From the UHGV virus genome UHGV-0356291: a stretch of 13,275 nucleotides of DNA. The stretch is one strand, 5' to 3'. Below are positions 1 to 13,275 of the stretch, one piece after another. This stretch comes from a virus. Position numbers and translations under genes: made by a program. Every line of letters starts with the position of its first letter. The first letter of the stretch is position 1. The notes below the pieces were generated by a model, which worked only from the letters and a program-made list of their open reading frames with translations, had not been told where the DNA came from and did not search any database.

Positions 1-1
1 A

Positions 2-160
2 GAGCGATTGAACAAACAGTTCGCACAACTTGAAAGCGAGCGTCAGTCGTTCGAGCCGCACTGGCGCGAGTTGAGTGATTACATCAACCCGCGTGGTTCC
101 CGCTTTCTGACTTCTGAGGTTAACCGTAACGATCGACGCCACAACTTAACAGGGCCATAA
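2..160 (+). CDS. portal protein, N-terminal fragment (5'-partial; start codon upstream of window); terminated by TAA 158-160 in the present orientation
   Basis: Frame 2 is open from position 2 and reads ERLNKQFAQLESERQSFEPHWRELSDYINPRGSRFLTSEVNRNDRR, resembling from memory the N-terminal region of T7 gp8 (YERLKNDRAPYETRAQ...). Same frame as the 215-1633 ORF. Confidence 0.6.
   Translation, partial: ERLNKQFAQLESERQSFEPHWRELSDYINPRGSRFLTSEVNRNDRRHNLTGP
94..139. repeat. left arm of 46-bp perfect inverted repeat (partner 289-334)
   Basis: Exact reverse complement of 289-334, checked base by base; mismatch at 93/335 and 140/288 defines the ends. Confidence 0.95.
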
Positions 161-214
161 TCCATCATTTCAGGATCTGGCGTAGCCAGGCGAAACCACG
201 GACGCGCGGGGCTT

Positions 215-1633
215 GTGATGCCTGACATCATGCCGCTGGCGAGAGTGCGCGCCGCCATAGTCCCGGTCGAATCAATAATGCGTGTATTGCGTCGATCGTT
301 ACGGTTAACCTCAGAAGTCAGAAAGCGGGAACCAGGAAGCCTCGGCACATACAGCACTGGTGCAATGGCAGTGCTGGAGGATGACGAGGACATCATTCGC
401 ACAATGCCATTCCCGATAGGCAGTTACTACCTGGCTAACTCACCTCGTGGCAGTGTGGACACCTGTTTTCGCAAGTTCTCTATGACTGTTCGTCAGCTTG
501 TTCAGGAGTTCGGGCTAAATAACGTCAGCGAATCCGTAAAAAGCATGTGGGAAAGCGGAACCTACGAGAAGTGGATTGAAGTGATGCATTCGGTTTACCC
601 GAACATTGACCGCGATACATCGAAGCTGGATAGCAAGAACAAGCCATTCAAATCGGTTTATTACGAGGTTGGTGGCGATAACGACAAGTTGTTGCGTGAG
701 TCCGGATTCGATGAGTTTCCAATTATGGCTCCGCGCTGGGAAGTTAACGGCGAAGATGTTTATGGATCATCATGCCCGGGTATGCTGGCGCTTGGACCTG
801 TTAAGGCATTGCAGCTTCTCCAGAAGCGCAAGTCGCAGTTGATTGATAAAGCCACCAATCCGCCGATGGTTGCTCCGACTTCCCTCAAGAATCAGCGTGC
901 CTCCCTTCTTCCTGGCGACATCACGTATATCGATCAGATTACTGGTCAGGATGGTTTCAGGCCTGCTTATCTGGTTAACCCCAGTACAGCAGATTTGGTG
1001 GCAGACATTCAGGACACCCGTCAAATCATTAACAGCGCCTACTTTGTCGATCTGTTCATGATGTTGCAGAACATCAATACCCGCTCGATGCCTGTTGAAG
1101 CGGTGATCGAAATGAAAGAAGAAAAACTTCTGATGTTGGGGCCGGTTCTGGAGCGTCTGAACGACGAATGTCTTAATCCTCTCATTGACCGCGCTTTCTC
1201 GATGATGGTGCGTAAAAACATGCTGCCGCCACCGCCTGACGCGATGGAAGGTATGCCCCTGAAGGTCGAATACATTTCCGTCATGGCTCAGGCGCAGAAG
1301 TCTATCGGCCTGTCCAGTCTGGCGTCTACGGTCAACTTCATTGGTCAACTTGCGCAAGCGAAACCAGAAGCTCTCGACAAACTCAACGTTGATCAGGCGA
1401 TCGATGCATTCGCTGATATGTCCGGAGTGTCTCCAACCGTCATTGTTCCGCAGGAACAGGTTGAGCAGGCTCGCCAGCAACGGGCACAGCAACAACAGCA
1501 GCAACAAATGATGGCGATGGGGATGGCGGCGGCACAGGGTGCCAAGACGCTAAGCGAAGCTAAAACTTCGGATCCGAGTGTTTTGTCAGCTATGGCGAAT
1601 GCAGTTAGTGGTCAGGGTGGGCAATCACAATGA
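215..1633 (+). CDS. portal (head-to-tail connector) protein, T7 gp8-like; 5' region disrupted, so ATG 215 is probably not the native start
   Basis: 472-aa ORF. C-terminus QQRAQQQQQQQMMAMGMAAAQGAKT matches the Q-rich ...QQSMQMGMDNGAAALAQGMAAQ tail I recall from T7 gp8. No Shine-Dalgarno before ATG 215; first ~25 codons are antisense of the flipped segment. Confidence 0.8.
   Translation: MMPDIMPLARVRAAIVPVESIMRVLRRSLRLTSEVRKREPGSLGTYSTGAMAVLEDDEDIIRTMPFPIGSYYLANSPRGSVDTCFRKFSMTVRQLVQEFGLNNVSESVKSMWESGTYEKWIEVMHSVYPNIDRDTSKLDSKNKPFKSVYYEVGGDNDKLLRESGFDEFPIMAPRWEVNGEDVYGSSCPGMLALGPVKALQLLQKRKSQLIDKATNPPMVAPTSLKNQRASLLPGDITYIDQITGQDGFRPAYLVNPSTADLVADIQDTRQIINSAYFVDLFMMLQNINTRSMPVEAVIEMKEEKLLMLGPVLERLNDECLNPLIDRAFSMMVRKNMLPPPPDAMEGMPLKVEYISVMAQAQKSIGLSSLASTVNFIGQLAQAKPEALDKLNVDQAIDAFADMSGVSPTVIVPQEQVEQARQQRAQQQQQQQMMAMGMAAAQGAKTLSEAKTSDPSVLSAMANAVSGQGGQSQ
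289..334. repeat. right arm of 46-bp perfect inverted repeat (partner 94-139)
   Basis: Exact reverse complement of 94-139. Confidence 0.95.
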
Positions 1634-1926
1634 CAGATTACGAAGACGATCAACTGAAAGAAGAAAACGCCCGTAAGCAACGTGACATGGCACAGCGTGA
1701 AATTGATGACATTTGCTTTGTCATGAGCAGTGAACAGGGGCGTCGCGTTGTCTGGTCGGTGCTGGAGAAAGGCCGTGTGTTTTCCGCTATCTCACCGATG
1801 GACGCTATGGCTATGGCATTTAATGAGGGGCAACGCAATCTGGCGCTGGAACTGTTTCAGCGCGTTATGGCGCATTGCCCTGAACAGTATTTGAAGATGG
1901 CCAAAGAGGCCAGTGAACAGGAGTGA
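1630..1926 (+). CDS. hypothetical protein (98 aa), between portal and scaffold
   Basis: ATG 1630 overlaps portal stop (ATGA); stop TGA 1924-1926 overlaps next gene; acidic/charged protein; no function recognised. Confidence 0.55.
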   Translation: MTDYEDDQLKEENARKQRDMAQREIDDICFVMSSEQGRRVVWSVLEKGRVFSAISPMDAMAMAFNEGQRNLALELFQRVMAHCPEQYLKMAKEASEQE

Positions 1927-1928
1927 TC

Positions 1929-2624
1929 ATGAATTTATTTGAGCGTTTGCTGTATCGCCGTCTTTGCAATGAGCAACCAGTCGATGGTGGAGCAGCTCCG
2001 GCTGCGTCAGAACCGTCAGCGCCTGCAGGTGATAACCCTGCTCCAGTTGGTGATCCATCACAACCGGAAGGTGATAAGCCACAACCTGTTGCTGATGGCG
2101 ATAAACCTGCTGATGACAAAAAGCCTGAAAACGATAAGCAGGATGAAAAAAAGGACGGCGATAAAACAGAGGGTGCGCCTGAGAAGTACGAGTTTCAGGC
2201 TGCCGAAGGCGTAGAGCTGGATACAGAAGCGTTGAAGGAATTCGAGCCGGTGGCGCGAGAACTAAACCTGACCAACGAGCAAGCGCAAAAGCTGGTTGAT
2301 GCTTATCCGAAGATTCTGGCAGGTGTTCAGCAGCGCCAGGCAGAAGCCTGGCAGAAAACAACCGAGCAGTGGGCTGCTGATGTAAAAGCTGACAAAGAAA
2401 TCGGTGGCGACAAGTTGATTTCTAACCTTAGCGCCGCACAGCGTGCGCTTGACCAGTTCGGGACACCTGAACTCAAAGAATATCTGAACACCACCGGGCT
2501 GGGTAATCACCCTGATCTGGTCAAAACGTTCGTGAAAATCGGAAAGGCGATGTCTGAAGATGGCATGGTCACCGGTGGTAATGAAGGCCAGCGTAGTGCG
2601 GCCGAAGTGCTCTATGGCAAATAA
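1929..2624 (+). CDS. putative scaffolding (capsid assembly) protein
   Basis: AGGAG at 1919-1923, 5 nt before ATG 1929 (six-frame track starts at in-frame GTG 1923). Highly acidic, Pro/Asp/Lys-rich N-terminal half, helical-looking C-terminal half, sits directly upstream of the capsid gene as T7 gp9 does. Confidence 0.6.
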   Translation: MNLFERLLYRRLCNEQPVDGGAAPAASEPSAPAGDNPAPVGDPSQPEGDKPQPVADGDKPADDKKPENDKQDEKKDGDKTEGAPEKYEFQAAEGVELDTEALKEFEPVARELNLTNEQAQKLVDAYPKILAGVQQRQAEAWQKTTEQWAADVKADKEIGGDKLISNLSAAQRALDQFGTPELKEYLNTTGLGNHPDLVKTFVKIGKAMSEDGMVTGGNEGQRSAAEVLYGK

Positions 2625-2638
2625 GAGAGGAAATGACA

Positions 2639-3625
2639 ATGGCTGTTAAAGGCTTAACTGCGCTAACGCTGGCTGACTGGGGTAAGCGCGTCGATCCAAA
2701 CGGGAAAGTCGATAAGATTATCGAGCTTCTCGGTCAAACTAACCCGATCCTTCAGGATATGCCTTTTGTCGAAGGGAACCTTCCTACCGGACACCGAACC
2801 ACCATTCGTTCTGGTTTACCTTCAGCTACCTGGCGTTTGCTGAACTATGGCGTACAGCCAAGCAAATCAACCACAGTACAGGTAACCGATTCCGTTGGCA
2901 TGCTGGAAACCTATGCGGAAGTCGATAAGTCACTGGCTGATCTGAACGGCAATACCGCCGAATTCCGCCTGTCTGAAGACCGCGCATTTATTGAAGCGAT
3001 GAATCAGCAGATGGCGCAGACGCTGTTTTATGGTGATTCCAGCGTTAACCCTCAGCAGTTTATGGGACTGTCCTCCCGCTATTCCAGCCTGTCTGCGGGT
3101 AATGCTCAGAACATCATTGATGCTGGTGGCACGGGTACAGATAACACCTCAATCTGGTTAGTGGTGTGGGGCGAAAACACCGTGCATGGCATCTTCCCGA
3201 AAGGGCAGAAGGCTGGCATCCAGATGGAAGATAAAGGCCAGGTGACACTGGAAGATGCTAATGGCGGCAAGTACGAAGGCTATCGCACCCATTACAAATG
3301 GGATAACGGACTTGCTCTGCGTGACTGGCGTTATGTTGTTCGCATTGCAAACATCGATGTCAGCAATCTTTCAGAACCTTCCTCTGCCGCAAATATTGCG
3401 AAGTTGATGGTTAAAGCACTGCATCGCATTCCAAATCGTGGCATGGGTCGCCCGGTGTTCTACATGAACCGCACTGTAGGCCAGGCTCTTGATCTGCAAT
3501 CTCTGGAGAAAACATCTCTGGCGATCAGCGTAAAAGAGACAGAAGGCGAGTGGTGGACTTCATTCCGTGGTGTACCAATCCGTGAAACTGATGCGCTTCT
3601 GGAAACAGAAGCCCGCGTGGTGTAA
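2639..3625 (+). CDS. putative major capsid protein (~328 aa)
   Basis: GAGG at 2627-2630, 8 nt before ATG 2639 (ATG 2633 is too close to the SD). Position after scaffold and size close to T7 gp10A (~345 aa from memory); called by synteny, no specific motif recognised. Confidence 0.6.
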   Translation: MAVKGLTALTLADWGKRVDPNGKVDKIIELLGQTNPILQDMPFVEGNLPTGHRTTIRSGLPSATWRLLNYGVQPSKSTTVQVTDSVGMLETYAEVDKSLADLNGNTAEFRLSEDRAFIEAMNQQMAQTLFYGDSSVNPQQFMGLSSRYSSLSAGNAQNIIDAGGTGTDNTSIWLVVWGENTVHGIFPKGQKAGIQMEDKGQVTLEDANGGKYEGYRTHYKWDNGLALRDWRYVVRIANIDVSNLSEPSSAANIAKLMVKALHRIPNRGMGRPVFYMNRTVGQALDLQSLEKTSLAISVKETEGEWWTSFRGVPIRETDALLETEARVV

Positions 3626-3641
3626 CGCCTGTTATTAACCT

Positions 3642-3661
3642 GTGGGTCGTAACAGACCCAC
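3642..3661 (+). promoter_or_regulatory. RNA stem-loop just downstream of capsid stop (GTGGGTC-gtaaca-GACCCAC)
   Basis: 7-bp GC-rich perfect stem with 6-nt loop, 17 nt after TAA 3623-3625; no U-tract follows, so not a classic intrinsic terminator. Confidence 0.5.
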
Positions 3662-3676
3662 TAATGGAGAAAGAAG

Positions 3677-4114
3677 ATGATCACCGACAAACTGTTGATG
3701 TTCTCCGAAGCACAGGCGGTAACTGATACCGCGGCTTCTACTGACGTAATCGATCTCGGTCCAATTGACGGAAAACGTCGTGATATCGGCGTGGGTTACC
3801 CGCTTGAGTTTTGGGCGCTGGTTAACACAGCCGCCGCAGCAAGCGGTGATGCAACTGTAAACATCCAGTTGCAGACGAGTGAGGATAACAGCTCATGGTC
3901 CACTATTTATGATAGTGGCGCACTGGCAAAGGCCACCCTGACAGCAGGTAAGCGAGTTGTTTCTGCAAAGGTGCCAGCCGGTGTTCAGCGATATCTGCGT
4001 GTTAACTACTCCGTCGCAACTGGCCCACTAACGGCTGGCAAATTCACTGCGGGTATCAATCTTGATGTTGATGCCAATACGCCGTATCCGATCCGCTCAA
4101 AAGTAACTGGTTAA
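3677..4114 (+). CDS. hypothetical virion-associated protein (145 aa)
   Basis: GGAG 3666-3669, 7 nt before ATG 3677; Ala/Thr/Gly-rich beta-like composition; no homolog named. Confidence 0.6.
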   Translation: MITDKLLMFSEAQAVTDTAASTDVIDLGPIDGKRRDIGVGYPLEFWALVNTAAAASGDATVNIQLQTSEDNSSWSTIYDSGALAKATLTAGKRVVSAKVPAGVQRYLRVNYSVATGPLTAGKFTAGINLDVDANTPYPIRSKVTG

Positions 4115-4124
4115 GGTGATATTG

Positions 4125-4460
4125 ATGTCAGGTGAGAAACCAAGATACCGCGTTCTGCGCCTCTCTCATATCCATAACACTCTGTGGCCGGAGGGGGCAG
4201 AAATCGAATACGAAGGTGAGCCTGGTAGCGCACTGGAACCTGTTAACGATGCAGCCAGACAGGCAAAAGCAAAAGTTGCAGGAAAAGAGTCAATGGCAGC
4301 AACCAGCACCAAAATCATCAACGATGTGTCAGATGATGGTGAACTGGATAAGCTCCGTGAAGAGTACGAATTGCTCTTTAACGAGAAGCCACACCATAAC
4401 GCCAAAGCCGAAACGCTCCGCGAGAAGATCGCAGATAAGCGTAAAGAACTGGGCGTGTAA
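4125..4460 (+). CDS. hypothetical protein (~112 aa)
   Basis: AAGGTG 4113-4118, 6 nt before ATG 4125 (track starts at GTG 4116); charged C-terminal half; followed immediately by an intrinsic terminator. Confidence 0.6.
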   Translation: MSGEKPRYRVLRLSHIHNTLWPEGAEIEYEGEPGSALEPVNDAARQAKAKVAGKESMAATSTKIINDVSDDGELDKLREEYELLFNEKPHHNAKAETLREKIADKRKELGV

Positions 4461-4478
4461 GCCTCGCGGATCAGACAA

Positions 4479-4498
4479 GGGGCTTCGGCCCCTTTATT
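4479..4498 (+). terminator. rho-independent terminator (GGGGC-ttcg-GCCCC then TTTATT)
   Basis: GC stem with UUCG tetraloop and U-rich tail, 19 nt after stop 4458-4460; stem can extend to AAGGGGC/GCCCCTT from 4477. Confidence 0.6.
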
Positions 4499-4510
4499 GC
4501 AGGAGTGTAT

Positions 4511-4834
4511 ATGGAACTCGTAAACCTCAAAACCGGCACTGACAGCTACCAGGATGAGAGCGGAGAAACCAGAACTCGCGATGAATACCCGTGGGGGCTG
4601 TGCATCACTCTTAATAACGACACATTGAATAAGCTGAAGGCGCAACCTCAGGGCGTCGGAACAGAAGTGATGATAACTGCAAAGGCTGTTATTCGAGGCC
4701 TGTCTGCCAGAGAAACTGACGATGGTGTTAATCGCAGCGCCGATCTGCAGATCACTGATATGGCGATCGCTCCTGTTTCCGGGGATGTAGAAAAATCAGC
4801 GGCTGAAACCCTGTACGGCAATGGGGGTGAGTAA
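4511..4834 (+). CDS. hypothetical protein (~107 aa) with scaffold-like C-terminal tail
   Basis: AGGAG 4500-4504, 6 nt before ATG 4511 (track starts at GTG 4505); C-terminus ...VEKSAAETLYGNGGE parallels scaffold C-terminus ...GQRSAAEVLYGK; stop TAA overlaps next ATG (TAATG). Confidence 0.6.
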   Translation: MELVNLKTGTDSYQDESGETRTRDEYPWGLCITLNNDTLNKLKAQPQGVGTEVMITAKAVIRGLSARETDDGVNRSADLQITDMAIAPVSGDVEKSAAETLYGNGGE

Positions 4835-5439
4835 TGGCCTCTGTAGTAGAGATCTGCAATCGTGCGCTGTCCAATATTGGCAATAGCCGCAGCATTAACA
4901 GCCTGACGGAAGCCAGCAAGGAAGCGGGGGAATGTTCGCTGCACTTTGAGGCCTGCCGTGATGCTGTGCTTTCTGATTTTGACTGGAACTTTGCTACCAA
5001 ACGCGTGGCGCTGGCAGATACGAGCAATCCACCGCCTGACTGGGAATATGCGTATCAGTACCCGTCCGATTGTCTGCGCATTACTGAAATTATGCTTCCT
5101 GGTGTACGCAATCCAACAGCAGCAATGCGCGTTCAGTACGAAGTAGGTGTAGACACCAACGGAACAGGAAAGTTGATCTACACAGACCAGCCTCAGGCAT
5201 GGCTCAAGTATGTCTCTCGCGTTACAGATGTGAACATGTTTGATGCCATTTTTATGGAGGCGTTGGCCTGGCGTCTTGCGGCAGCTATTAACATGGCGCT
5301 GACTGGGAATGCAGACCTCGGTACGTTTGCCCTCAATATGTACAATCGCGTGATTCTTAGTGCTGGCTCGCATAGCCAGAATGAATCACAGGAACCACAG
5401 CCACCGGTTGACGAGTTTACCATTGCGAGGTTGTCCTGA
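4834..5439 (+). CDS. putative tail tubular protein A (T7 gp11-like)
   Basis: 201 aa versus ~196 aa for T7 gp11 (from memory); N-terminal ICNRALSNIGNSRSINSLTEA resembles T7 gp11 AVNDILASIGEPPVSTLEG; followed by a ~800-aa gene as in T7. Confidence 0.55.
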   Translation: MASVVEICNRALSNIGNSRSINSLTEASKEAGECSLHFEACRDAVLSDFDWNFATKRVALADTSNPPPDWEYAYQYPSDCLRITEIMLPGVRNPTAAMRVQYEVGVDTNGTGKLIYTDQPQAWLKYVSRVTDVNMFDAIFMEALAWRLAAAINMALTGNADLGTFALNMYNRVILSAGSHSQNESQEPQPPVDEFTIARLS

Positions 5440-7910
5440 TGGCTATCAGTTGGATACAGCCCAGCTTTGCCGGTGGTGAGATTGGACCGTCGTTGTACGG
5501 TCGTATCGACATGGCGAAGTACCAGGTGGCATTGCGCAAGTGCGATAACTTTATCGTGCGGCAGTATGGCGGCGTTGAGAATCGACCTGGTACGCGTTTT
5601 GTCGGTGCCGCCAAATACCCAAATCGGAAATGCCGCCTGATCCCGTTCCAGTTCTCGACGGTTCAGACCTATGCTCTGGAGTTCGGACACCAGTACATGC
5701 GCGTTATCAAAGATGGTGCGTTGGTGCTGAACAGCAGCAATGTTATTTATGAAATTTCCACGCCATATACTGAAGCCGATCTGTTCCGAATTAAATTCAC
5801 GCAAAGCGCAGACGTGCTTACGCTGGTTCATCCGGCATACCCGCCGAAAGAGTTGCGCCGCTATGCGCATGACAACTGGCAACTGGTTGATGTGGTAACG
5901 AAGAACGGGCCATTTGAAGATATCAATATTGACGAGTCAGTGACGGTTTATGCCAGCGCCAGCACCGGGACAATTACGTTAACGGCAAGCGCCTCTATTT
6001 TTGGCGCGGAGCAGGTAGGCAAATTGTTCTATCTGGAACAGCCTGCAGTGGATTCTGTGCCGGTATGGGAAACCAGTAAGAGTACGTCGATTGGCGATAT
6101 TCGCCGTGCAGACAGTAACTACTATCGCGCCGTTACAGCAGGCAAAACAGGTACTTTGCGCCCTTCGCATACAGAAGGCACATCATGGGATGGCTGGGGC
6201 GGATCCGGTGATGATGATACTGGCATTGAGTGGGAGTATCTGCACAGTGGTTTTGGCATTGCCCGTATCACTGCTGCAAATGGCACTACTGCAACTGCTG
6301 AGGTGATTTCCTATATCCCTTCGCAGGTCGTTGGCGAGGATAATGCCAGCTATAAATGGGCTAAATATGCCTGGAACAGTGTTAATGGTTATCCTGGCAC
6401 TGTTGTTTATTATCAACAACGTCTTTACTTCGCCGCATCGACTGCGTTTCCTCAGACTATCTGGGCCAGCCGTACCGGGGATTATAAGGATTTTGGCAAA
6501 AGCAATCCTACGCAGGATGACGACAGAATTATCTACACCTATGCCGGACGTCAGGTTAATGAGATCCGCCACCTGATTGATGTTGGTTCTCTGGTGGCGC
6601 TGACTTCCGGAGGTGAGTACGTCATCACCGGCGACCAGAACAAAGTGTTAACCCCATCATCATTTGCATTCAGCTCTCAGGGATCAAATGGCTCAAGCAA
6701 CGTCCCGCCAATTGCCGTGGCGAATATTGCTCTGTTCGTCCAGGAGAAAGGCAGCGTTGTCCGTGATCTGGCCTACTCATTCGATGTTGACGGCTATCAG
6801 GGGAACGACCTGACCATCCTTGCCAATCATCTTTTTCAGAAGCACAGCATTGTTGACTGGTGCTTCTCGATTGTCCCTTACTCCAGTGCCTTCTGCATTC
6901 GTGATGACGGTAAATTACTGGTGATGACCTATTTGCGTGATCAGCAGGTTTTTGCATGGGCACCACAATCCAGTACCGGAAAATATGAAAGCACATGCAG
7001 TATCAGCGAAGGCAATGAAGATGCGGTGTATTTCGTCGTTAACCGAACCGTTAACGGGCAAACAGTGAGATACATCGAGCGACTGTCCAGCCGTTTATTT
7101 ACCAGCGATGAAGATGCTTTCTTTGTTGATTCTGGCCTTAGCTATGATGGAAGAAATACGTCTGACAGAACGATGACCATCACTGGTGGTTCTGGTGAAT
7201 GGGATTACCATGCGGAATATACAATCAGTGTTTCTGGTGGTGCGTACTTCACCAGTAGTGATGTCGGCGCGCAACTACAGTTCCCTTATACCGGAACTGA
7301 TCCTGATACTGGCGATGAAGTGTCAAAAGAATTACGTTGCGACATTATTTCTGTAACCAGCAATACCGCTGTAGTGGTTCGTGCTAACAGGAACGTCCCG
7401 CCATCCCTCAGGAATGTGGCCACCACGAACTGGCAGATGGCGCGCCGGACATTTGGCGGCTTGTCTCATCTTGAAGGCCAGACCGTAAACATCCTCTCTG
7501 ATGCGAACGTGGAACCACAGAAAGTGGTTTCCGGAGGTGCCGTCACGCTGGAATCTCCGGGGGCTGTAGTGCACATCGGCCTGCCAATAACTGCTGAATT
7601 CGAAACACTGGATATCAACATTAACGGACAGGAAACGCTGCTGGACAAAAAACAGGTGATCCCGTCCGTTACTCTGGTTGTGAATGCCAGTCGCGGCATC
7701 TGGGCGACTACGCCCGGCGGTAAATGGTACGAATATCCACAGCGTGAATTCGAGTTCTACGATGATCCTGTTGATGATGCTACCGGAAAAGTAGAAGTGA
7801 AACTGGACAGTAACTGGGGCAAAAACGGACGTGTAAAAATCCGTCAGCTTGATCCGTTGCCGCTGTCTGTTCTTGCCGTTATTCCTCGCCTTACTGTTGG
7901 GGGATTCTGA
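5439..7910 (+). CDS. putative tail tubular protein B / nozzle (T7 gp12-like)
   Basis: 823 aa versus ~794 aa for T7 gp12 (from memory); start overlaps upstream stop (TGATG); N-terminus MAISWIQPSFAGGEIGP loosely resembles T7 gp12 MALISQSIKNLKGGISQQP; assignment mostly by size and order. Confidence 0.5.
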   Translation: MAISWIQPSFAGGEIGPSLYGRIDMAKYQVALRKCDNFIVRQYGGVENRPGTRFVGAAKYPNRKCRLIPFQFSTVQTYALEFGHQYMRVIKDGALVLNSSNVIYEISTPYTEADLFRIKFTQSADVLTLVHPAYPPKELRRYAHDNWQLVDVVTKNGPFEDINIDESVTVYASASTGTITLTASASIFGAEQVGKLFYLEQPAVDSVPVWETSKSTSIGDIRRADSNYYRAVTAGKTGTLRPSHTEGTSWDGWGGSGDDDTGIEWEYLHSGFGIARITAANGTTATAEVISYIPSQVVGEDNASYKWAKYAWNSVNGYPGTVVYYQQRLYFAASTAFPQTIWASRTGDYKDFGKSNPTQDDDRIIYTYAGRQVNEIRHLIDVGSLVALTSGGEYVITGDQNKVLTPSSFAFSSQGSNGSSNVPPIAVANIALFVQEKGSVVRDLAYSFDVDGYQGNDLTILANHLFQKHSIVDWCFSIVPYSSAFCIRDDGKLLVMTYLRDQQVFAWAPQSSTGKYESTCSISEGNEDAVYFVVNRTVNGQTVRYIERLSSRLFTSDEDAFFVDSGLSYDGRNTSDRTMTITGGSGEWDYHAEYTISVSGGAYFTSSDVGAQLQFPYTGTDPDTGDEVSKELRCDIISVTSNTAVVVRANRNVPPSLRNVATTNWQMARRTFGGLSHLEGQTVNILSDANVEPQKVVSGGAVTLESPGAVVHIGLPITAEFETLDININGQETLLDKKQVIPSVTLVVNASRGIWATTPGGKWYEYPQREFEFYDDPVDDATGKVEVKLDSNWGKNGRVKIRQLDPLPLSVLAVIPRLTVGGF

Positions 7911-8374
7911 TGATCGATGTTCAAATTATTCCCGCAACCGAAGAGCATCTTCAGATGATTTTGCCGGATGTTCGTCAGGCTGATATTGACGAACTGTATG
8001 CGGTATCACTGATGACTACCGAAGATGCGCTGCGTGTTGGTCTGCGTACTGCGACTATGGCCTGGTCAGGATTTGCGAACGGAGAACTGGTAACCATGTT
8101 TGGCGTATCTCCGGCGTCAATGATCGGTGGCAATGGTACGCCCTGGCTGGTCGGAACCAGCCGCATCGAAAAATATCAGAAGACATTTCTTCGCCACTGC
8201 CGCCCTGTATTGCAGCAGATGCTGGCAGTTTATCCGCGCCTGGAAAACTATGTCGACGAGCGAAACCATGTTGCCAAAGCATGGCTGCACTGGCTTGGAT
8301 TCAGGCTTGAAGAAGCCGCGCCTTATGGTGCTCTTGGTCTTAATTTCCACAGATTTCACATGGAGAGAAAATAA
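7910..8374 (+). CDS. hypothetical protein (154 aa), T7 gp13-like position
   Basis: Start overlaps upstream stop (TGATG); size near T7 gp13; no motif recognised. Confidence 0.6.
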   Translation: MIDVQIIPATEEHLQMILPDVRQADIDELYAVSLMTTEDALRVGLRTATMAWSGFANGELVTMFGVSPASMIGGNGTPWLVGTSRIEKYQKTFLRHCRPVLQQMLAVYPRLENYVDERNHVAKAWLHWLGFRLEEAAPYGALGLNFHRFHMERK

Positions 8375-8391
8375 TGTGTAACCCAGCCATC

Positions 8392-8494
8392 GCTTTGGTT
8401 GCCGTCACAGTGGCATACGCTGATCCGCTTCAATATTCCCACGATTGATTGAATCCTGTGCCTGAGCTTCAGCAATTTCAGCATTCCGATCAGC
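8392..8494. repeat. rotated inverted copy of 8551-8651 (two blocks: 8392-8416 and 8417-8494)
   Basis: 8392-8416 is the reverse complement of 8551-8575 and 8417-8494 is the reverse complement of 8574-8651, both exact. Confidence 0.95.
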
Positions 8495-8495
8495 T

Positions 8496-9041
8496 ATGGC
8501 TGACTGGTATTTTGCCTGCTTGCTCTGGCTGTACATTGACGCGGCTGTGGATGCCACTGTGACGGCAACCAAAGCTGATCGGAATGCTGAAATTGCTGAA
8601 GCTCAGGCACAGGATTCAATCAATCGTGGGAATATTGAAGCGGATCAGCGTCGTCGTGAAATGCGTCAACGCTCAGGCACTGCGGCGGCCACTATGGGGG
8701 CTACCGGTGCGGAATTAAGTAGCGGAACAGCTCTTGACGTTTTTGCGGATAATGCTCAGTTCGGCACTCTTGATGCGTTAACGACAGTGAATAATGCTCA
8801 GCGTGAGGCATATGGGTATCAGGTTCAGGGAATGAATGCTCAGGCACAGGGGGCTGCTGCTCAGTCGGCTGCTAAATCATCGATGACCAGCACTTTGTTA
8901 ACGGCACCACTAAAAGCATACGGTGCATATAAGTTGGGTAGCGGAAGTATCAATCCGATTAGTAAGCAAGGAAACACGCCAATGTTATCTAACTCAGGTT
9001 TTATGAATTCTGACTCCCGATTCAAAATAGGAGGTTACTGA
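8496..9041 (+). CDS. putative internal virion protein (181 aa), T7 gp14-like position
   Basis: ORF with hydrophobic N-terminus (WYFACLLWLYIDAAV) and Ala/Gln-rich middle; no SD before ATG 8496 and in-frame TGA at 8463-8465; stop overlaps next ATG. Confidence 0.55.
   Translation: MADWYFACLLWLYIDAAVDATVTATKADRNAEIAEAQAQDSINRGNIEADQRRREMRQRSGTAAATMGATGAELSSGTALDVFADNAQFGTLDALTTVNNAQREAYGYQVQGMNAQAQGAAAQSAAKSSMTSTLLTAPLKAYGAYKLGSGSINPISKQGNTPMLSNSGFMNSDSRFKIGGY
8551..8651. repeat. in-gene partner of the upstream inverted copy 8392-8494
   Basis: Encodes in frame DATVTATKADRNAEIAEAQAQDSINRGNIEADQR of the 181-aa ORF, so this copy is the coding original. Confidence 0.95.
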
Positions 9042-11788
9042 TGCCTGTTGTTCCTACTACATCCGGACGCCAGGTGCAAAGTCGTGGTGTGCAAACCGGT
9101 GGTTTTCAGACCTTCGATGTTCCTCAAGCAGGTCAGGTGCTGGCGAATGTCGCAGATCAGTATGCGGTGGCATATGGTGAAGCCAGGCAGAAAGCGAATG
9201 TTGCTATGGCCCAGGAGGCGTTACTGCAATTTAACCAATTTGCAGATGACCAGATTAACAACCCTGAAAATGGGCTGATTTCTAAACAGGGTAAAAACGC
9301 TCTTGGTCAGAGTGACGCTGTTATGAAAAATATGCAGGAAAGGGCTCAGGCATTATTAGGCTCAATTCCTGAAAGTGAGGAAAGGAATAAATTATCCTTT
9401 CAACTCCAGCAGTCTATGCAGTCTTATTACAATCAGGCACGTCGATATGAAGTTGGGCAGTTTCAGCAATTCCAAGATCAAACGTATTTGTCAGGAAATG
9501 CATTGGCTGTCACTCAGTCTGCGGGGCTATATAGCGATAACCAAGCATTTGTCGATTTAGCCAAGCAGCGATTTGAATCTATTGATCAATACGCTGATGC
9601 GCATGGGCTTCCTGATGAGTGGCGTGTTCAGCAGAAAACTCAGCTCAAGGAACAAATGGGGCAGCAAGCATGGATAGGAAATATCGCTCAAAAATACAAC
9701 GAGTTTCTTCAGGTTAATGGAGAGCCAGGGGATCTTGATGGTGTGAGTCGTGCAATATCACATGGTAATTCATTGGATGCTCGTGGTTTACGTAATAATA
9801 ACCCCGGTAATATTGAAGCGAGCAAATCTAACCCGTGGGAAGGTCAGATCGGTAGCGATGGACGTTTTGCAACGTTTGCTACCCCTGAGCATGGAATCCG
9901 CGCGTTGGGTAAAAATATGTTGTCTTACCAGCGTCAAGGCTATGACACCGTTAGCGAGATTGTTAATCGCTATGCTCCGGCTAGTGATGGTAATAATACT
10001 GATGCTTATATTAGGGCATTGTGTGGTGAGCTTGGTGTTGGGGAGAATGATCAGCTTGATATCTCTAACCCAAAGACACTAGCTGCTTTATGTGCTGGGA
10101 TTATTAAACACGAAAATGGCAGTATGCCTTATAGCACCGAACAGCTTGAAACTGGTATCTCGGCAGCCCTTGGTCTAACTAACCTTGATTCACCTAAGCG
10201 TTATACGGGCAATGCGGCATTTGATGCTATGAGCCCTCAAATGCAAATACAGGCATTGAGGCAGGCTAATGAGCTGAGAAATCAGTACCGCCAGCAGTAT
10301 GCGGACCAGCTTAGCACCGTAGTTAAAGATGCATATTCAGCCCTTGATGAAGGATTGAAACCTGAGAAGTTACCTTCTGAGGACGATTTTATCCGGGCCA
10401 ATGGTCCGCGCATTGGCGCTATGAAGTGGAAGGATATGCAGGCGCAGATACAATATGGAGGTGTCATTGGTGCCGCTAAAGACCTCACTCCAGAAGGACG
10501 GCAAGACATTCTTGAACGTTTACGTCCACAGGATCCAAACGCTCCTGGATTTGCAGCTAACCAGCAACGCTGGGAGAAAATGCAGGCCAAATTTAAAGAG
10601 ATGGATAGGGAGTGGGAGATTCAGCAGGGAAGAAACAGGTTCGTGTCTTCAATGCAAAATAACTTCCCGCTGGACCCGAACGACAAAAACAATCAGGCAG
10701 CGGTAGACCGTTATTTCGCGCAGGATATCGCGCCTTCGTTTTCCATATCTGATCCGCAGAGCATCAATACACTGGTCACCGTCACAACTAAAAGCGGCAT
10801 GATACCAACTCAGATTAAAACAATGCTTAACAGTGGAGCGACATCAAGAGATCCTGCGCTGGTTGTCCCGATGGCAAAATTCTACGGTCAGTTATTCGAT
10901 AATAATCCGGCGGCAGCGGCAACACTTGATAAAAGTACGATGGCATTTTACGGCAAGGTTTACGATTATTCCCGCGCTGGCGTGCCGGAGGATAAGGCTG
11001 TTGATATGGCTTACAGCCAGGTGTTCCAACAGGATGACCGAATGAAACAGATGCTTTCCACTGCCATGCGAGACAAAAAATATGTCGCGGCGAGGGCAAC
11101 TGCTGCACAAAATAACGCCAGCAGTCTGACTTCCTTTGGTTCGTGGTCTCCGGATATTACCGATCCAGGAAAATCAAATGCGGCCTATCAGCGAGATTAC
11201 CAGACAATTTACGATGCTAACTTTGTACAGACAGGTGGCGATGCAGAACAGGCTGAGAAAATGACCAATGCCATGATCAGAACCACTTGGGGAGTTTCTA
11301 CGGTTAATGGCAAAGCAGAGGTTATGAAGTATGCACCTGAGGCATTGTACGGAGTAAATAATGGTGCTGGTAACTGGATACAGGGGCAGTGGGAGCAGGA
11401 AAAACGCGAGCTTAAATCAAAATCCTTTGGCGGTCCTCGCAGTGATACGGACTTAATACTTGTTTCTGATGGCCTTACGGCAAGGGATAGGAGTTATGCT
11501 GTTATGGTTTTACAGCCTGACGCAAACGGAGCGATAGAACCGAGAAATTATATTGGAGAAAATGGTCTCCCTGTTCGTTTCAAGCCGGATCAGCTGACAT
11601 CTCCAATGTACAGGCAAACCATTCAGTTCCAGCAACAGCGTGTTGATGAGGCTAGAGTGCGGAGAGAAGGCAATCCGCTGCCGCAGTTCAGCAATAAAGA
11701 TGGATATACTCCTCCAGATCTGACAAAACCATTCGGTTATGGTTCAGCCAATTACCTTCCGAGCAATATATACGCAGGGGGCAAATAA
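9041..11788 (+). CDS. putative internal virion / ejection protein (915 aa) with a conserved-looking RNNNPGNI...RYAP block
   Basis: Long ORF coupled to flanking genes (TGATG / TAATG); Gln-rich; position equals T7 gp15/gp16; lower GC than upstream genes. Confidence 0.7.
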   Translation: MPVVPTTSGRQVQSRGVQTGGFQTFDVPQAGQVLANVADQYAVAYGEARQKANVAMAQEALLQFNQFADDQINNPENGLISKQGKNALGQSDAVMKNMQERAQALLGSIPESEERNKLSFQLQQSMQSYYNQARRYEVGQFQQFQDQTYLSGNALAVTQSAGLYSDNQAFVDLAKQRFESIDQYADAHGLPDEWRVQQKTQLKEQMGQQAWIGNIAQKYNEFLQVNGEPGDLDGVSRAISHGNSLDARGLRNNNPGNIEASKSNPWEGQIGSDGRFATFATPEHGIRALGKNMLSYQRQGYDTVSEIVNRYAPASDGNNTDAYIRALCGELGVGENDQLDISNPKTLAALCAGIIKHENGSMPYSTEQLETGISAALGLTNLDSPKRYTGNAAFDAMSPQMQIQALRQANELRNQYRQQYADQLSTVVKDAYSALDEGLKPEKLPSEDDFIRANGPRIGAMKWKDMQAQIQYGGVIGAAKDLTPEGRQDILERLRPQDPNAPGFAANQQRWEKMQAKFKEMDREWEIQQGRNRFVSSMQNNFPLDPNDKNNQAAVDRYFAQDIAPSFSISDPQSINTLVTVTTKSGMIPTQIKTMLNSGATSRDPALVVPMAKFYGQLFDNNPAAAATLDKSTMAFYGKVYDYSRAGVPEDKAVDMAYSQVFQQDDRMKQMLSTAMRDKKYVAARATAAQNNASSLTSFGSWSPDITDPGKSNAAYQRDYQTIYDANFVQTGGDAEQAEKMTNAMIRTTWGVSTVNGKAEVMKYAPEALYGVNNGAGNWIQGQWEQEKRELKSKSFGGPRSDTDLILVSDGLTARDRSYAVMVLQPDANGAIEPRNYIGENGLPVRFKPDQLTSPMYRQTIQFQQQRVDEARVRREGNPLPQFSNKDGYTPPDLTKPFGYGSANYLPSNIYAGGK

Positions 11789-12957
11789 TGCCGATATATG
11801 AACAGGATCCTAAAGAGTTGCTTGGCGAGGGTATTCAGCAAATAGCAGCACCTGATGACAGTAATTTCTATATGGAAACACCTTCTTTGCTTTCTGCTGT
11901 GAACCCATTTACCAGTGATCAACGCGTTCAAAGGTCTAGACAAGCAGCATTTCGTATAGATAACACGCTGGGTAGCTTTATTGCCAGTGCTCCTTTCAGT
12001 CAGTTTGACAGGGTTGAAGGATATAACCCATTTGATAACGATGCAGCAGATATTAAAGGCTATGAAGATTTTGCAGATTCGTTTATCAACTCCGGTTCGC
12101 ATGAAGAAACAATGGCAATTAAACATCGAATCGATCAGCAGAGAGCTGACATGGAATACAATTCAGGCTTGGGATTTGCTGGTACAGTCTCTTCTGTAGC
12201 AATGAGATTAGCAGATCCATTCAATGCGATTTCTATGTTTATTCCGTTCGGCGCTGTCGTTCGTGGCGGTCGTATTGCAGAAACAGCCGGACGTTTTGCT
12301 TTAGCCAATGCTGCTGGCAGTGTTGCTTCAGAGGCCGCATTGCAGGCCACTCAGGAAGCTCGCTCACCGATGGAGAGCGTATCGAACGTTGTTGTTGATG
12401 CTCTCGTTGGTGGGATCCTTGGTGCTGGTGCACAGCTACTTGCTGGACCTAGCGCGCGCGAGGCAGTGGTTAACTCAGTAGGTAATCATTTGCGAGGTAT
12501 GGATTCTCCTCAAAGCATTGGTGCAGCTCAGGTTTTCAATACCACACTCGATCAGGAACAGCTTGCTGGACTTGGACTTGCTAACAAAACGTTGAGTGTC
12601 ACTCCTGCTGGCCGCTTGGCGCAATCACCATCTCTTGTTTCCCGTCAGATTAACCAGCAGCTTGCCGAAAATAACTATTTCTTCGCCAAAAATGATGAGG
12701 GGTTGGCTACGTTTACGGCAGTCGAGACTAAGATTAAGCAATACGACGCCATGCTTTATAAGCAGATGGAAGCTACTCGTGATGCTTACCAGCAGTACAG
12801 CAAATCTGTCAGCGCCCGCGGCGTGAAGAGGATGAACTTTATTGATTTCAATGAAGCTGTTGGCATGGCTATGCGCCGTGGTGATCAGAGTGATATTCCT
12901 GAGGTTTCACAAGCTTTTCAATTCGCTGACCTGCTTTGTCAGCACCTTTGGCACTAA
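11788..12957 (+). CDS. putative internal virion protein, apparently truncated at 389 aa by an inverted-duplication insert
   Basis: ATG overlaps upstream stop; ORF ends at TAA 12955-12957 inside the inverted copy; frame resumes at 13062 after the direct repeat. Confidence 0.65.
   Translation: MPIYEQDPKELLGEGIQQIAAPDDSNFYMETPSLLSAVNPFTSDQRVQRSRQAAFRIDNTLGSFIASAPFSQFDRVEGYNPFDNDAADIKGYEDFADSFINSGSHEETMAIKHRIDQQRADMEYNSGLGFAGTVSSVAMRLADPFNAISMFIPFGAVVRGGRIAETAGRFALANAAGSVASEAALQATQEARSPMESVSNVVVDALVGGILGAGAQLLAGPSAREAVVNSVGNHLRGMDSPQSIGAAQVFNTTLDQEQLAGLGLANKTLSVTPAGRLAQSPSLVSRQINQQLAENNYFFAKNDEGLATFTAVETKIKQYDAMLYKQMEATRDAYQQYSKSVSARGVKRMNFIDFNEAVGMAMRRGDQSDIPEVSQAFQFADLLCQHLWH
12899..12914. repeat. 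direct repeat CTGAGGTTTCACAAGC, copy 1
   Basis: Identical to 13060-13075; both copies sit at the boundaries of the inverted copy. Confidence 0.9.
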
Positions 12958-13060
12958 TCCCTTGTATCCAGTTGGCAATTCGCCCTCTGAATTCAGTGCG
13001 GTCGGAAAGTATCTTATCGAACTTATAAATGCGGGGAAGATAACTCTTCGCCGTCACGAC
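12940..13060. repeat. inverted copy (121 bp visible) of 13155-13275
   Basis: Exact reverse complement of 13155-13275; may extend left to 12915 if the partner continues beyond the window end. Confidence 0.95.
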
Positions 13061-13075
13061 TGAGGTTTCACAAGC
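13060..13075. repeat. direct repeat CTGAGGTTTCACAAGC, copy 2
   Basis: Identical to 12899-12914. Confidence 0.9.
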
Positions 13076-13275
13076 AGCCGCCAGAATCCGCCCCATTTTT
13101 GAGACCACAAAAGCCCGTATGCAGGAATTGGGGATCCTTCCTGAGGATATCGATGTCGTGACGGCGAAGAGTTATCTTCCCCGCATTTATAAGTTCGATA
13201 AGATACTTTCCGACCGCACTGAATTCAGAGGGCGAATTGCCAACTGGATACAAGGGATTAGTGCCAAAGGTGCTG
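13062..13275 (+). CDS. continuation of the 11788 gene (3'-partial, runs off window)
   Basis: Frame 3 open from 13062 to window end: EVSQAAARIRPIFETTKARMQELGILPEDIDVVTAKSYLPRIYKFDKILSDRTEFRGRIANWIQGISAKGA; begins with the same EVSQA as the upstream direct-repeat copy. Confidence 0.5.
13155..13275. repeat. downstream partner of inverted copy 12940-13060 (coding orientation)
   Basis: Exact reverse complement of 12940-13060; lies in the open frame continuing the last gene. Confidence 0.95.

What the first reader, a model, noticed from the sequence alone, without database searches (positions are those of the whole stretch)
8392..8651. The 103 bp upstream of the 181-aa gene are a rotated inverted copy of its own codons 19-52
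8392-8416 is the reverse complement of 8551-8575 and 8417-8494 is the reverse complement of 8574-8651, both exact. The two blocks are in swapped order relative to a simple inversion, as if copied from a circularised or tandem template or by two template switches. The in-gene copy is clearly coding, so the upstream copy is derived. It fills the whole intergenic space: ATG 8496 has no Shine-Dalgarno and an in-frame TGA sits at 8463-8465, so the native initiation region of this gene may have been displaced. Folded as RNA or ssDNA, the two copies would pair over about 100 nt and occlude the start codon.
Basis: seen in the sequence. Interest (0 to 1): 0.7.

Follow-up and report, generated by a model that had tools for sequence, protein, structure and literature searches.

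The report
Private inverted-copy chimera breaking a phage gene
The inverted repeat is real in this sequence, but it is one of three one-off "copy backwards, then carry on" rearrangements in an otherwise base-perfect copy of a common E. coli prophage, so it is most likely an amplification, sequencing or assembly chimera and not a regulatory feature.

Summary
In detail: 8392-8416 and 8417-8494 are exact reverse complements of 8551-8575 and 8574-8651. The window is an epsilon15/phiV10-like (Uetakevirus) prophage structural module. Intact alleles of this T7_gp14-family core-protein gene start at ATG 8374, which has a good Shine-Dalgarno and overlaps the upstream stop. They read P-a-m-b-S; the window reads P-a-[rc(b)-rc(m)-rc(a)]-b-S, matching that reconstruction at 278/278 bases. 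So 8392-8416 and 8576-8651 are the native copies, 8417-8575 is one inverted 159-nt block, +101 nt shifts the frame, and the "181-aa gene" is a chimeric ORF whose first 27 codons are antisense junk. The whole window is a 0-mismatch, seven-segment mosaic of an E. coli prophage (NZ_CP030111.1) with three such events (140-334, 8417-8575, 12915-13060), each breaking an essential virion gene. None occurs in 120-524 E. coli genomes carrying these genes, in 50,697 phage records, or in three contig collections. Junction microhomology is chance-like, and one sibling event is of a type never seen among natural template switches. Best reading: a non-biological switch-and-return chimera (about 0.7). A real, very recent in-vivo template switch remains possible (about 0.2). 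A regulatory hairpin is excluded. Interest is low.

The parts
8362..8367 (+). Native Shine-Dalgarno (GGAGAG), 6 nt before the true start ATG 8374
   Evidence: Read from the sequence. Identical in the intact alleles L002, L004 and L005.
8374..8448 (+). Truncated native reading frame: the true start (TAATG overlap with the upstream gene's stop), 14 native codons MCNPAIALVAVTVA, 10 junk codons, then TGA 8446-8448
   Evidence: Translation. The intact alleles begin with the same ATG and encode a 188-aa T7_gp14-family protein.
8392..8416 (+). Segment a (25 nt): NATIVE copy, part of the 5' coding sequence
   Evidence: Collinear with and identical to intact alleles (ref L005 9922-9946).
8417..8492 (-). 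rc(b) (76 nt): DERIVED inverted copy of native 8576-8651. Junction J1 at 8416|8417 has 0 nt of microhomology.
   Evidence: Reconstruction matches at 278/278 bases; junction analysis.
8493..8550 (-). rc(m) (58 nt): the middle of the native gene, present only in inverted orientation. It contains the fortuitous ATG 8496.
   Evidence: m = CCACAGCC...CCATAGC in the intact alleles; the window carries its exact reverse complement.
8551..8575 (-). rc(a) (25 nt): DERIVED inverted copy of 8392-8416. Junction J2 at 8575|8576 has 3 nt of microhomology (AGC) within an 8/10 homeology.
8576..8651 (+). Segment b (76 nt): NATIVE copy, where the native coding frame resumes
   Evidence: Collinear with intact alleles (ref L005 10005-10080).
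8496..9041 (+). Codons 1-27 are an antisense-derived artefact; codons 28-181 are native T7_gp14-family sequence lacking the native hydrophobic N-terminus.
   Evidence: PHROG 418 and Pfam PF24072 match only residues 24/26 onward, and the Pfam score of 23.4 falls below the cut-off of 27, whereas the intact protein scores 31.6.
140..334 (-). Sibling event E1: a 195-nt inverted block inside the portal gene. Inverted-repeat arms are 94-139 / 289-334; 74-76 nt of reference is deleted; net change is -30 nt.
   Evidence: Present in 0 of 524 E. coli genomes.
12915..13060 (-). Sibling event E3: a 146-nt inverted copy of downstream sequence inserted into the DUF919 gene. Inverted-repeat arms are 12940-13060 / 13155-13275 (reaching the window end); net change is +161 nt.
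   Evidence: Present in 0 of 120 E. coli genomes.
13060..13075 (+). 16-nt direct duplication (CTGAGGTTTCACAAGC) of 12899-12914 flanking the E3 insert. It shows that the return switch landed upstream of the departure point.

Best explanation
The flagged repeat is the footprint of one 'switch-and-return' copying error in the gene for a T7_gp14-family internal virion (core/ejection) protein of an epsilon15/phiV10-like E. coli prophage. Copying ran forward through the true start (ATG 8374) to 8416. It then jumped 134 nt ahead onto the opposite strand, copied 159 nt backwards (8417-8575 = reverse complement of a-m-b), and returned to the forward strand at b (8576). The result is P-a-[rc(b) rc(m) rc(a)]-b-S instead of P-a-m-b-S. 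That adds 101 nt, shifts the frame, truncates the native ORF at codon 25, and leaves a fortuitous 181-aa ORF. All of that is shown directly. The inference is about where it happened. The same window carries three events of this class and no point differences from a common prophage. Each event inactivates an essential virion gene, none is seen in any other genome, junction microhomology is at chance level, one event is of a topology not seen in natural template switching, and two of the three events lie next to the window ends. The error was therefore most likely made outside the cell, as a chimeric molecule or mis-join from amplification, library preparation, sequencing or assembly (or other manipulation of the sequence). 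It is not an evolved or functional feature. It has no biological function; the predicted hairpin is a by-product.
For: Structure:
- The reconstruction from intact allele KM389361 matches the window at 278/278 bases.
- The whole window is a 7-segment, 0-mismatch mosaic of NZ_CP030111.1.
Recurrence:
- There are three events with the same geometry: a jump of 134-225 nt ahead onto the opposite strand, 146-195 nt copied backwards, and a return at -15 to +225 nt from the departure point.
Privacy:
- E2 is in 0/509, E1 in 0/524 and E3 in 0/120 E. coli genomes holding the respective region.
- The best whole-window hits cover 96% in 4 collinear pieces.
- No phage record carries any of the events.
- Junction J1 is absent from viral contigs, genome contigs and metagenome contigs.
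- The chimeric ORFs are not on record.
No native substrate:
- The intact allele has no inverted repeat of 8 nt or more around E2, and its fold is at background.
Junctions:
- Microhomology is 2, 0, 0, 3, 1, 1 nt, consistent with random joins (P = 0.24).
Topology:
- E3 is type 4-1-3-2. Four-point-model types in which point 4 precedes point 1 were not observed in natural data (PMC5453318).
Position:
- Two of the three events lie within 350 nt of the window ends (P = 0.008).
Precedent:
- Inverted, proximal, intramolecular chimeras are the dominant MDA artefact, at about 1 junction per 3-22 kb (PMC1855051; bioRxiv 10.1101/2022.08.13.503872).
- They are assembled into contigs as local inversions and duplications (bioRxiv 10.64898/2026.06.11.730069).
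Against: No reads, coverage data or provenance are available, so artefact status is inferred and not demonstrated. The best-documented artefact, phi29 MDA mispriming, fits poorly on one criterion. Lasken & Stockwell found complementarity of 2 nt or more at 93.5% of proximal inverted junctions, whereas only 2 of 6 junctions have it here (P = 2.4e-4). Six junctions in 13 kb is also denser than their 1 per 10-22 kb. The specific artefact process is therefore unidentified. E1 (type 3-1-2-4) and E2 (type 3-1-4-2) are topologies that do occur naturally. Inverted repeats of this size and spacing are tolerated in E. coli (established knowledge), so the sequence could exist in vivo.
Confidence: 0.7

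Rival explanations
1. These are real, very recent in-vivo rearrangements. Replication-associated template switching (inter-strand switch and return, four-point-model type 3-1-4-2) in a prophage or a replicating phage genome produced a defective genome that was then faithfully sequenced. One example would be a non-viable molecule packaged in trans during induction, or a prophage beginning to decay.
For: [quoted passage not shown] J2 lies in an 8/10 homeology (CAACCAAAGC vs CAGCCATAGC) with 3 nt of exact microhomology. Chance-level microhomology argues against classical MDA mispriming. Prophage genes are dispensable to the host, so knock-outs are tolerated.
Against: Three complex events with 0 substitutions in 13,275 nt is the reverse of what natural divergence gives. 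All three are absent from every one of 120-524 related genomes. The copied blocks of 146-195 nt are much longer than the tens of bp typical of natural short-range switches, and E3 is of the '4 before 1' class not found in natural data. The intact allele has no quasipalindrome to prime a switch. The events cluster near the window ends (P = 0.008), which a biological process would not know about.
Confidence: 0.2
2. The event is a breakage-and-rejoining inversion with staggered breaks. Staggered single-strand cuts at a and at b, fill-in, and re-ligation of the a-m-b fragment in reverse orientation would give an inversion flanked by inverted duplications, as described for Drosophila inversion breakpoints (own knowledge, not checked here).
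For: E2 alone fits this model exactly: P-a | rc(a-m-b) | b-S, with near-blunt junctions of 0 and 3 nt microhomology.
Against: The sibling event E3 is not an inversion. It inserts an inverted copy of a downstream 146-nt segment that also remains in place, plus a 16-nt direct duplication, so it needs copying rather than cut-and-rejoin. E1 needs an added 74-76-nt deletion. One process (two template switches) explains all three events, whereas this model explains only one. E. coli lacks canonical NHEJ (established knowledge).
Confidence: 0.04
3. It is a functional cis-regulatory hairpin or invertible switch. The upstream inverted copy would pair with the coding region to occlude the start codon, or the segment would flip as a phase-variable inverton controlling the core-protein gene.
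For: The predicted duplex is extremely stable (-192 kcal/mol, z = -21) and the region just upstream of ATG 8496 is fully paired.
Against: It is not conserved in any relative. The intact allele has no inverted repeats at all, so there is no 'other state' of an inverton. The structure lies inside the native coding sequence and frameshifts it. Recombination between either pair of arms cannot restore the intact gene (reasoned from the a / rc(b) rc(m) rc(a) / b order). ATG 8496 is not the gene's start.
Confidence: 0.01

Closest known systems
Four-point-model template-switch event, type '3-1-4-2' (Loytynoja & Goldman 2017, Genome Res; PMC5453318)
   Same: The formal structure is identical. F1 and F3 are collinear with the reference and F2 is copied in reverse complement from nearby. 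The switch-point order along the reference is 3 (9922) < 1 (9946) < 4 (10005) < 2 (10080). [quoted passage not shown]
   Different: The 2->3 fragment is 159 nt, against the tens of bp typical of natural events. It is accompanied by a sibling event (E3, type 4-1-3-2) of a class not observed in natural data. There are three events and no substitutions in 13 kb.
Inverted chimeras of phi29 multiple displacement amplification (Lasken & Stockwell 2007, PMC1855051) and their incorporation into assemblies (bioRxiv 10.64898/2026.06.11.730069)
   Same: All six junctions join opposite strands. The joins are intramolecular and proximal (under 300 nt), dense, and accompanied by small deletions or duplications. 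The '4 before 1' geometry is natural for displaced 3' ends. Such chimeras are known to produce local inversions and raised duplication in contigs.
   Different: Only 2 of 6 junctions have 2 nt or more of complementarity, against 93.5% reported for proximal inverted MDA junctions (P = 2.4e-4). The density of 6 junctions per 13 kb is above the reported 1 per 3-22 kb. Use of MDA on the source sample is unknown.
Classical quasipalindrome template-switch mutations in bacteria (Ripley 1982; Dutra & Lovett 2006, as summarised in PMC5453318)
   Same: They create a perfect inverted repeat by strand switching and may invert the spacer.
   Different: They require a pre-existing imperfect inverted repeat, and none exists in the intact allele.
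T7 gp14-family internal virion / core (ejection) protein, Pfam PF24072, PHROG 418 (identity of the affected gene)
   Same: The intact 188-aa allele matches PF24072 above the gathering score (31.6 vs 27) and PHROG 418 end to end (E = 9e-65). The gene sits in the canonical order between an internal virion protein gene (PHROG 308) and a large core/transglycosylase-like protein gene.
   Different: In the window the gene is broken. The native frame stops after 24 codons. The surviving 181-aa ORF lacks the N-terminal hydrophobic segment and a ribosome-binding site, and scores below the Pfam cut-off (23.4).

Membership tests
Conserved cis-regulatory RNA hairpin (translational occlusion) | The structure is present in related genomes at the same locus | tested here: not met
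   0 of 509 E. coli genomes and 0 of 15 phage records with this gene carry the inverted copy. Their matches span 350 bp, the intact length.
Conserved cis-regulatory RNA hairpin (translational occlusion) | It lies in a non-coding leader and leaves the coding sequence intact | tested here: not met
   It lies downstream of the true start ATG 8374, adds 101 nt and frameshifts the gene.
Inverton / site-specific invertible DNA switch | Inverted repeats flank the segment in both orientation states | tested here: not met
   The intact allele has no inverted repeat of 8 nt or more in L005 9880-10120, and its fold z-score is -1.7.
Inverton / site-specific invertible DNA switch | Inversion is length-neutral (no net gain of sequence) | tested here: not met
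   The rearranged form is 101 nt longer than the intact form.
Four-point-model template switch, type 3-1-4-2 | F1 and F3 are collinear with the reference, and F2 is an exact reverse complement of nearby reference sequence | tested here: met
   0 mismatches across all seven segments.
Four-point-model template switch, type 3-1-4-2 | Switch-point order 3-1-4-2, producing two inverted repeats and an inverted spacer | tested here: met
   Reference positions are 9922 (point 3), 9946 (point 1), 10005 (point 4) and 10080 (point 2); definition taken.
Four-point-model template switch, type 3-1-4-2 | It arose in vivo during replication (natural events are short-range, and point 4 never precedes point 1) | tested here: inconclusive
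   E2 itself is an allowed type, but its F2 is 159 nt long, and the sibling E3 is type 4-1-3-2, a class absent from natural data. The origin cannot be decided without reads.
phi29 MDA inverted chimera | Segments are joined in inverted orientation, intramolecularly and less than 10 kb apart | tested here: met
   All six junctions join opposite strands 15-271 nt apart; criteria taken.
phi29 MDA inverted chimera | The junction is primed at 2 nt or more of complementarity (93.5% of proximal inverted junctions) | tested here: not met
   Microhomology is 2, 0, 0, 3, 1, 1 nt, so 2 of 6 junctions qualify. P = 2.4e-4 under 0.935, and the values are compatible with random joins (P = 0.24).
phi29 MDA inverted chimera | The source DNA was amplified by MDA, and the junction is supported only by clonal or minority reads | not testable with these tools
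   No reads or provenance are available. The source contig was not found in any collection.
T7_gp14 family (PF24072) - identity of the disrupted gene | Pfam score above the gathering threshold over the full length | tested here: met
   The intact allele L005:9904-10467 scores 31.6 bits against a cut-off of 27, covering residues 1-163. PHROG 418 gives E = 9e-65. The window's chimeric ORF scores only 23.4.

The most novel reading that the evidence does not exclude
The three events are genuine in-vivo products. A strand-displacement-type replication process acting on this prophage or phage DNA, for example during induction, would make long (about 150-200 nt) switch-and-return copies with little or no microhomology. 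One of them has the '4 before 1' topology so far unseen in natural template-switch catalogues. The resulting defective genomes were then captured by sequencing. That would document a dense, previously uncatalogued class of replication error in a temperate podophage.
Probability: 0.12. Interest if true: 0.45.

Novelty: not a real feature. Interest (0 to 1): 0.08.

Why it matters
As biology it matters little. No regulatory hairpin, new gene start or new element is present. If the rearrangement is real, it is an ordinary knock-out of a phage core-protein gene by a known class of template switch. Its practical value is for quality control. This window should be treated as structurally unreliable, and its ORFs at 215-1633, 8496-9041 and 11788-12957 should not enter protein databases as genuine variants. 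Exact inverted duplications of about 25-120 nt with short spacers, in sequence otherwise identical to a reference, are a useful automatic flag for chimeras.

Tried and rejected
- **Source contig.** I tried to find it through the unique chimeric proteins (181 aa and 389 aa) with the look-up of encoding contigs; neither is on record.
- **Junction scans.** Junction J1 (28-mer) was scanned in viral contigs, genome contigs and metagenome contigs, with 0 hits in each.
- **NCBIfam.** It gave no hits for any of four proteins. Pfam and PHROGs were needed to name the gene.
- **Inverton or quasipalindrome substrate.** Rejected, because the intact allele has no inverted repeats.
- **Classical MDA mispriming as the specific cause.** Weakened by chance-level microhomology. 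I therefore keep "non-biological chimera" generic and do not name MDA.
- **Concatenated read pairs.** I considered un-split paired-end reads (R1 followed by un-reversed R2). The jumps of 134-225 nt would fit inserts of about 280-375 nt for 150-nt reads at five of six junctions. E3's return junction, where point 4 is upstream of point 3 by 94 nt, is geometrically impossible for a proper pair, so I rejected this as a complete explanation (reasoned from the numbers).
- **Staggered-break inversion.** It fits E2 only, not E3.
- **The 2 mismatches in the BLAST output.** They are not SNPs. They come from BLAST extending into the homeologous 8566-8575 stretch; the exact path has 0 mismatches.

Full report
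**1. Observation.**
The reported repeats are present and exact. 8392-8416 is the reverse complement of 8551-8575 (25 nt), and 8417-8494 is the reverse complement of 8574-8651 (78 nt). The second pair extends to 86 nt with mismatches at 8496 and 8500. Chance cannot produce this. About 8e-8 exact 25-nt inverted pairs are expected in 13 kb. The intact version of the same 13 kb has no exact inverted match longer than 13 nt, inside the 12-20 nt range of shuffles. The side remarks are also true: no Shine-Dalgarno precedes ATG 8496, and there is an in-frame TGA at 8463-8465.

**2. What the locus is.**
- The window is the structural module of an epsilon15/phiV10-like podophage (genus Uetakevirus): portal, protease, major capsid, tail protein, internal virion proteins.
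- It is a prophage widespread in E. coli; 565 of 5,426 complete genomes have a match.
- The affected gene is annotated in RefSeq as "virion core protein, T7 gp14 family".
- The intact 188-aa product matches Pfam PF24072 (31.6 bits against a cut-off of 27) and PHROG 418 "internal virion protein" (E = 9e-65).

**3. Anatomy.**
Two phage records (KM389361, PP350014) and hundreds of E. coli prophages carry an intact allele identical to the window except at this spot.
- The intact gene starts at the ATG corresponding to window 8374. That ATG overlaps the upstream gene's stop (TAATG) and is preceded by GGAGAG (8362-8367).
- The intact allele can be written P(18)-a(25)-m(58)-b(76)-S.
- The window reads P-a-rc(b)-rc(m)-rc(a)-b-S, and a reconstruction from the intact allele matches it at 278/278 bases.
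- The apparent "rotation" of the two blocks therefore disappears. There is one contiguous inverted block, 8417-8575 = rc(a-m-b), sitting between a retained a (8392-8416) and a retained b (8576-8651).
The 58-nt middle exists only in inverted form.
- The change adds 101 nt, so it shifts the frame.
- The native frame now reads MCNPAIALVAVTVA plus 10 junk codons and stops at TGA 8446-8448.
- The "181-aa gene" begins at an ATG created inside rc(m). Its first 27 codons are antisense translation (MADWYFACLLWLYIDAAVDATVTATKA), and it rejoins the native frame only at b. Accordingly the family models match it only from residue 24/26 onward, and its Pfam score falls below threshold.

**4. The surroundings change the question.**
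A scan of the whole window found two more exact inverted duplications: 94-139 / 289-334, and 12940-13060 / 13155-13275. Alignment to the best E. coli match (NZ_CP030111.1, strain MCJCHV-1; locus L005) shows that the window is a perfect seven-segment mosaic with 0 mismatches in 13,275 nt:

| Window | Strand | Reference (L005) |
|---|---|---|
| 1-139 | + | 1501-1639 |
| 140-334 | - | 1788..1594 |
| 335-8416 | + | 1865-9946 |
| 8417-8575 | - | 10080..9922 |
| 8576-12914 | + | 10005-14343 |
| 12915-13060 | - | 14568..14423 |
| 13061-13275 | + | 14329-14543 |

- All three events share one geometry: a forward run, a jump of 134-225 nt ahead onto the opposite strand, 146-195 nt copied backwards, and a return to the forward strand at -15 to +225 nt from the departure point.
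- E1 breaks the portal gene, E2 the gp14-family gene and E3 the DUF919 gene.
- E3 is not an inversion. It inserts an inverted copy of a downstream segment that also remains in place, with a 16-nt direct duplication. It therefore requires copying, not breakage and rejoining.

**5. Are the events shared?**
No.
- E2 is absent from all 509 E. coli genomes with the region, E1 from 524 and E3 from 120.
- The best whole-window matches are collinear and cover 96%.
- No phage record has any of the events.
- The E2 junction is absent from IMG/VR, the GTDB genome contigs and the JGI metagenome contigs.
- The chimeric ORFs are not on record.

**6. Mechanism.**
Formally, each event is a two-switch "switch-and-return" copy as in the four-point model of Loytynoja & Goldman (PMC5453318).
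- E1 is type 3-1-2-4.
- E3 is type 4-1-3-2. That paper reports that types in which point 4 precedes point 1 are never seen in natural data, because the return switch would need the newly made duplex to be reopened.

Other relevant observations:
- The intact allele has no pre-existing inverted repeat that could prime a classical bacterial quasipalindrome switch.
- Junction microhomologies are 2, 0, 0, 3, 1, 1 nt, compatible with random joins (P = 0.24).
- Two of the three events lie within 350 nt of the window ends (P = 0.008). This suggests the window is a whole contig or read whose ends and one interior point were built from chimeric material.

**7. In vitro or in vivo?**
These points argue against evolved or inherited mutations:
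- three complex events with no substitutions;
- knock-outs of three essential virion genes;
- absence from every relative;
- one naturally unobserved topology;
- association with the window ends.

They fit a process that reopens fresh duplexes and strand-switches locally. Inverted, proximal, intramolecular chimeras are the dominant artefact of phi29 MDA: 85% are inverted, at about one junction per 3-22 kb (PMC1855051). They are known to be built into contigs as local inversions with raised duplication.

I do not name MDA as the cause, because 93.5% of proximal inverted MDA junctions show 2 nt or more of complementarity and only 2 of 6 do here (P = 2.4e-4). A paired-read concatenation model fits five of the six junctions but not E3's return junction. 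The specific artefact process therefore remains unidentified.

My estimates are:
- about 0.7 for a non-biological chimera of some kind;
- about 0.2 for a real, very recent in-vivo template switch (a defective genome);
- about 0.04 for staggered-break inversion;
- about 0.01 for a functional hairpin or switch.

**8. The hairpin.**
If transcribed, 8374-8660 would fold at -192 kcal/mol (z = -21). An 86-bp stem would bury the region upstream of ATG 8496, with the A and U of that ATG in a 2-nt bulge. The intact allele folds at background (-58.5 kcal/mol, z = -1.7). This is a trivial consequence of the duplication. ATG 8496 is not the gene's start, so the occlusion has no regulatory meaning.

**9. 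Verdict.**
It is a rearrangement by two switches and not a conserved hairpin.
- Novelty: not a real feature. If real, it is an already known kind of template-switch knock-out.
- Interest is low (0.08).

Noticed in passing
window 94-334: Sibling event E1 lies inside the portal gene. A 195-nt inverted block (140-334) has 46-nt exact inverted arms (94-139 / 289-334) and a 74-76-nt deletion of reference sequence. The portal frame hits a stop, leaving a GTG-started 472-aa chimeric ORF (215-1633).
   Followed up: yes
window 12899-13275: Sibling event E3 lies inside the DUF919 gene. A 146-nt inverted copy of downstream sequence is inserted, with a 16-nt direct duplication (12899-12914 / 13060-13075). 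The 121-nt inverted arms run to the last base of the window. The four-point type is 4-1-3-2, which is not seen in natural template-switch catalogues.
   Followed up: yes
whole window (1-13275): Apart from the three events, the window has 0 mismatches to the E. coli MCJCHV-1 prophage (NZ_CP030111.1 1377416-1390458). Two of the three events lie within 350 nt of the window ends (P about 0.008), which suggests the window is an entire contig or read with chimeric ends.
   Followed up: partly
window ~8378 and 8950-9041: There is a natural mosaic boundary at the start of the gp14-family gene. phiV10, TL-2011b, ZX5 and other relatives are 97-99% identical up to window 8378 and then switch to a divergent allele (MCDPVIAGGAML...). 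The C-terminal tail of the window's allele (…TPMLSNSGFMNSDSRFKIGGY) matches phage EC.W1-9 rather than KM389361, so the gene is itself a recombinant of at least two allele families.
   Followed up: partly
window 9041-11788: The 915-aa ORF downstream matches PHROG 1044 ('endolysin') end to end and also several head / tail-injection transglycosylase families. It has no Pfam or NCBIfam hit. It is probably the gp15/gp16-like core/ejection protein with a lytic domain.
   Followed up: no
L005 759-835 (outside the window, about 670 nt upstream of the portal gene in NZ_CP030111.1): A tRNA-Arg gene lies inside the reference prophage just upstream of the structural module.
   Followed up: no
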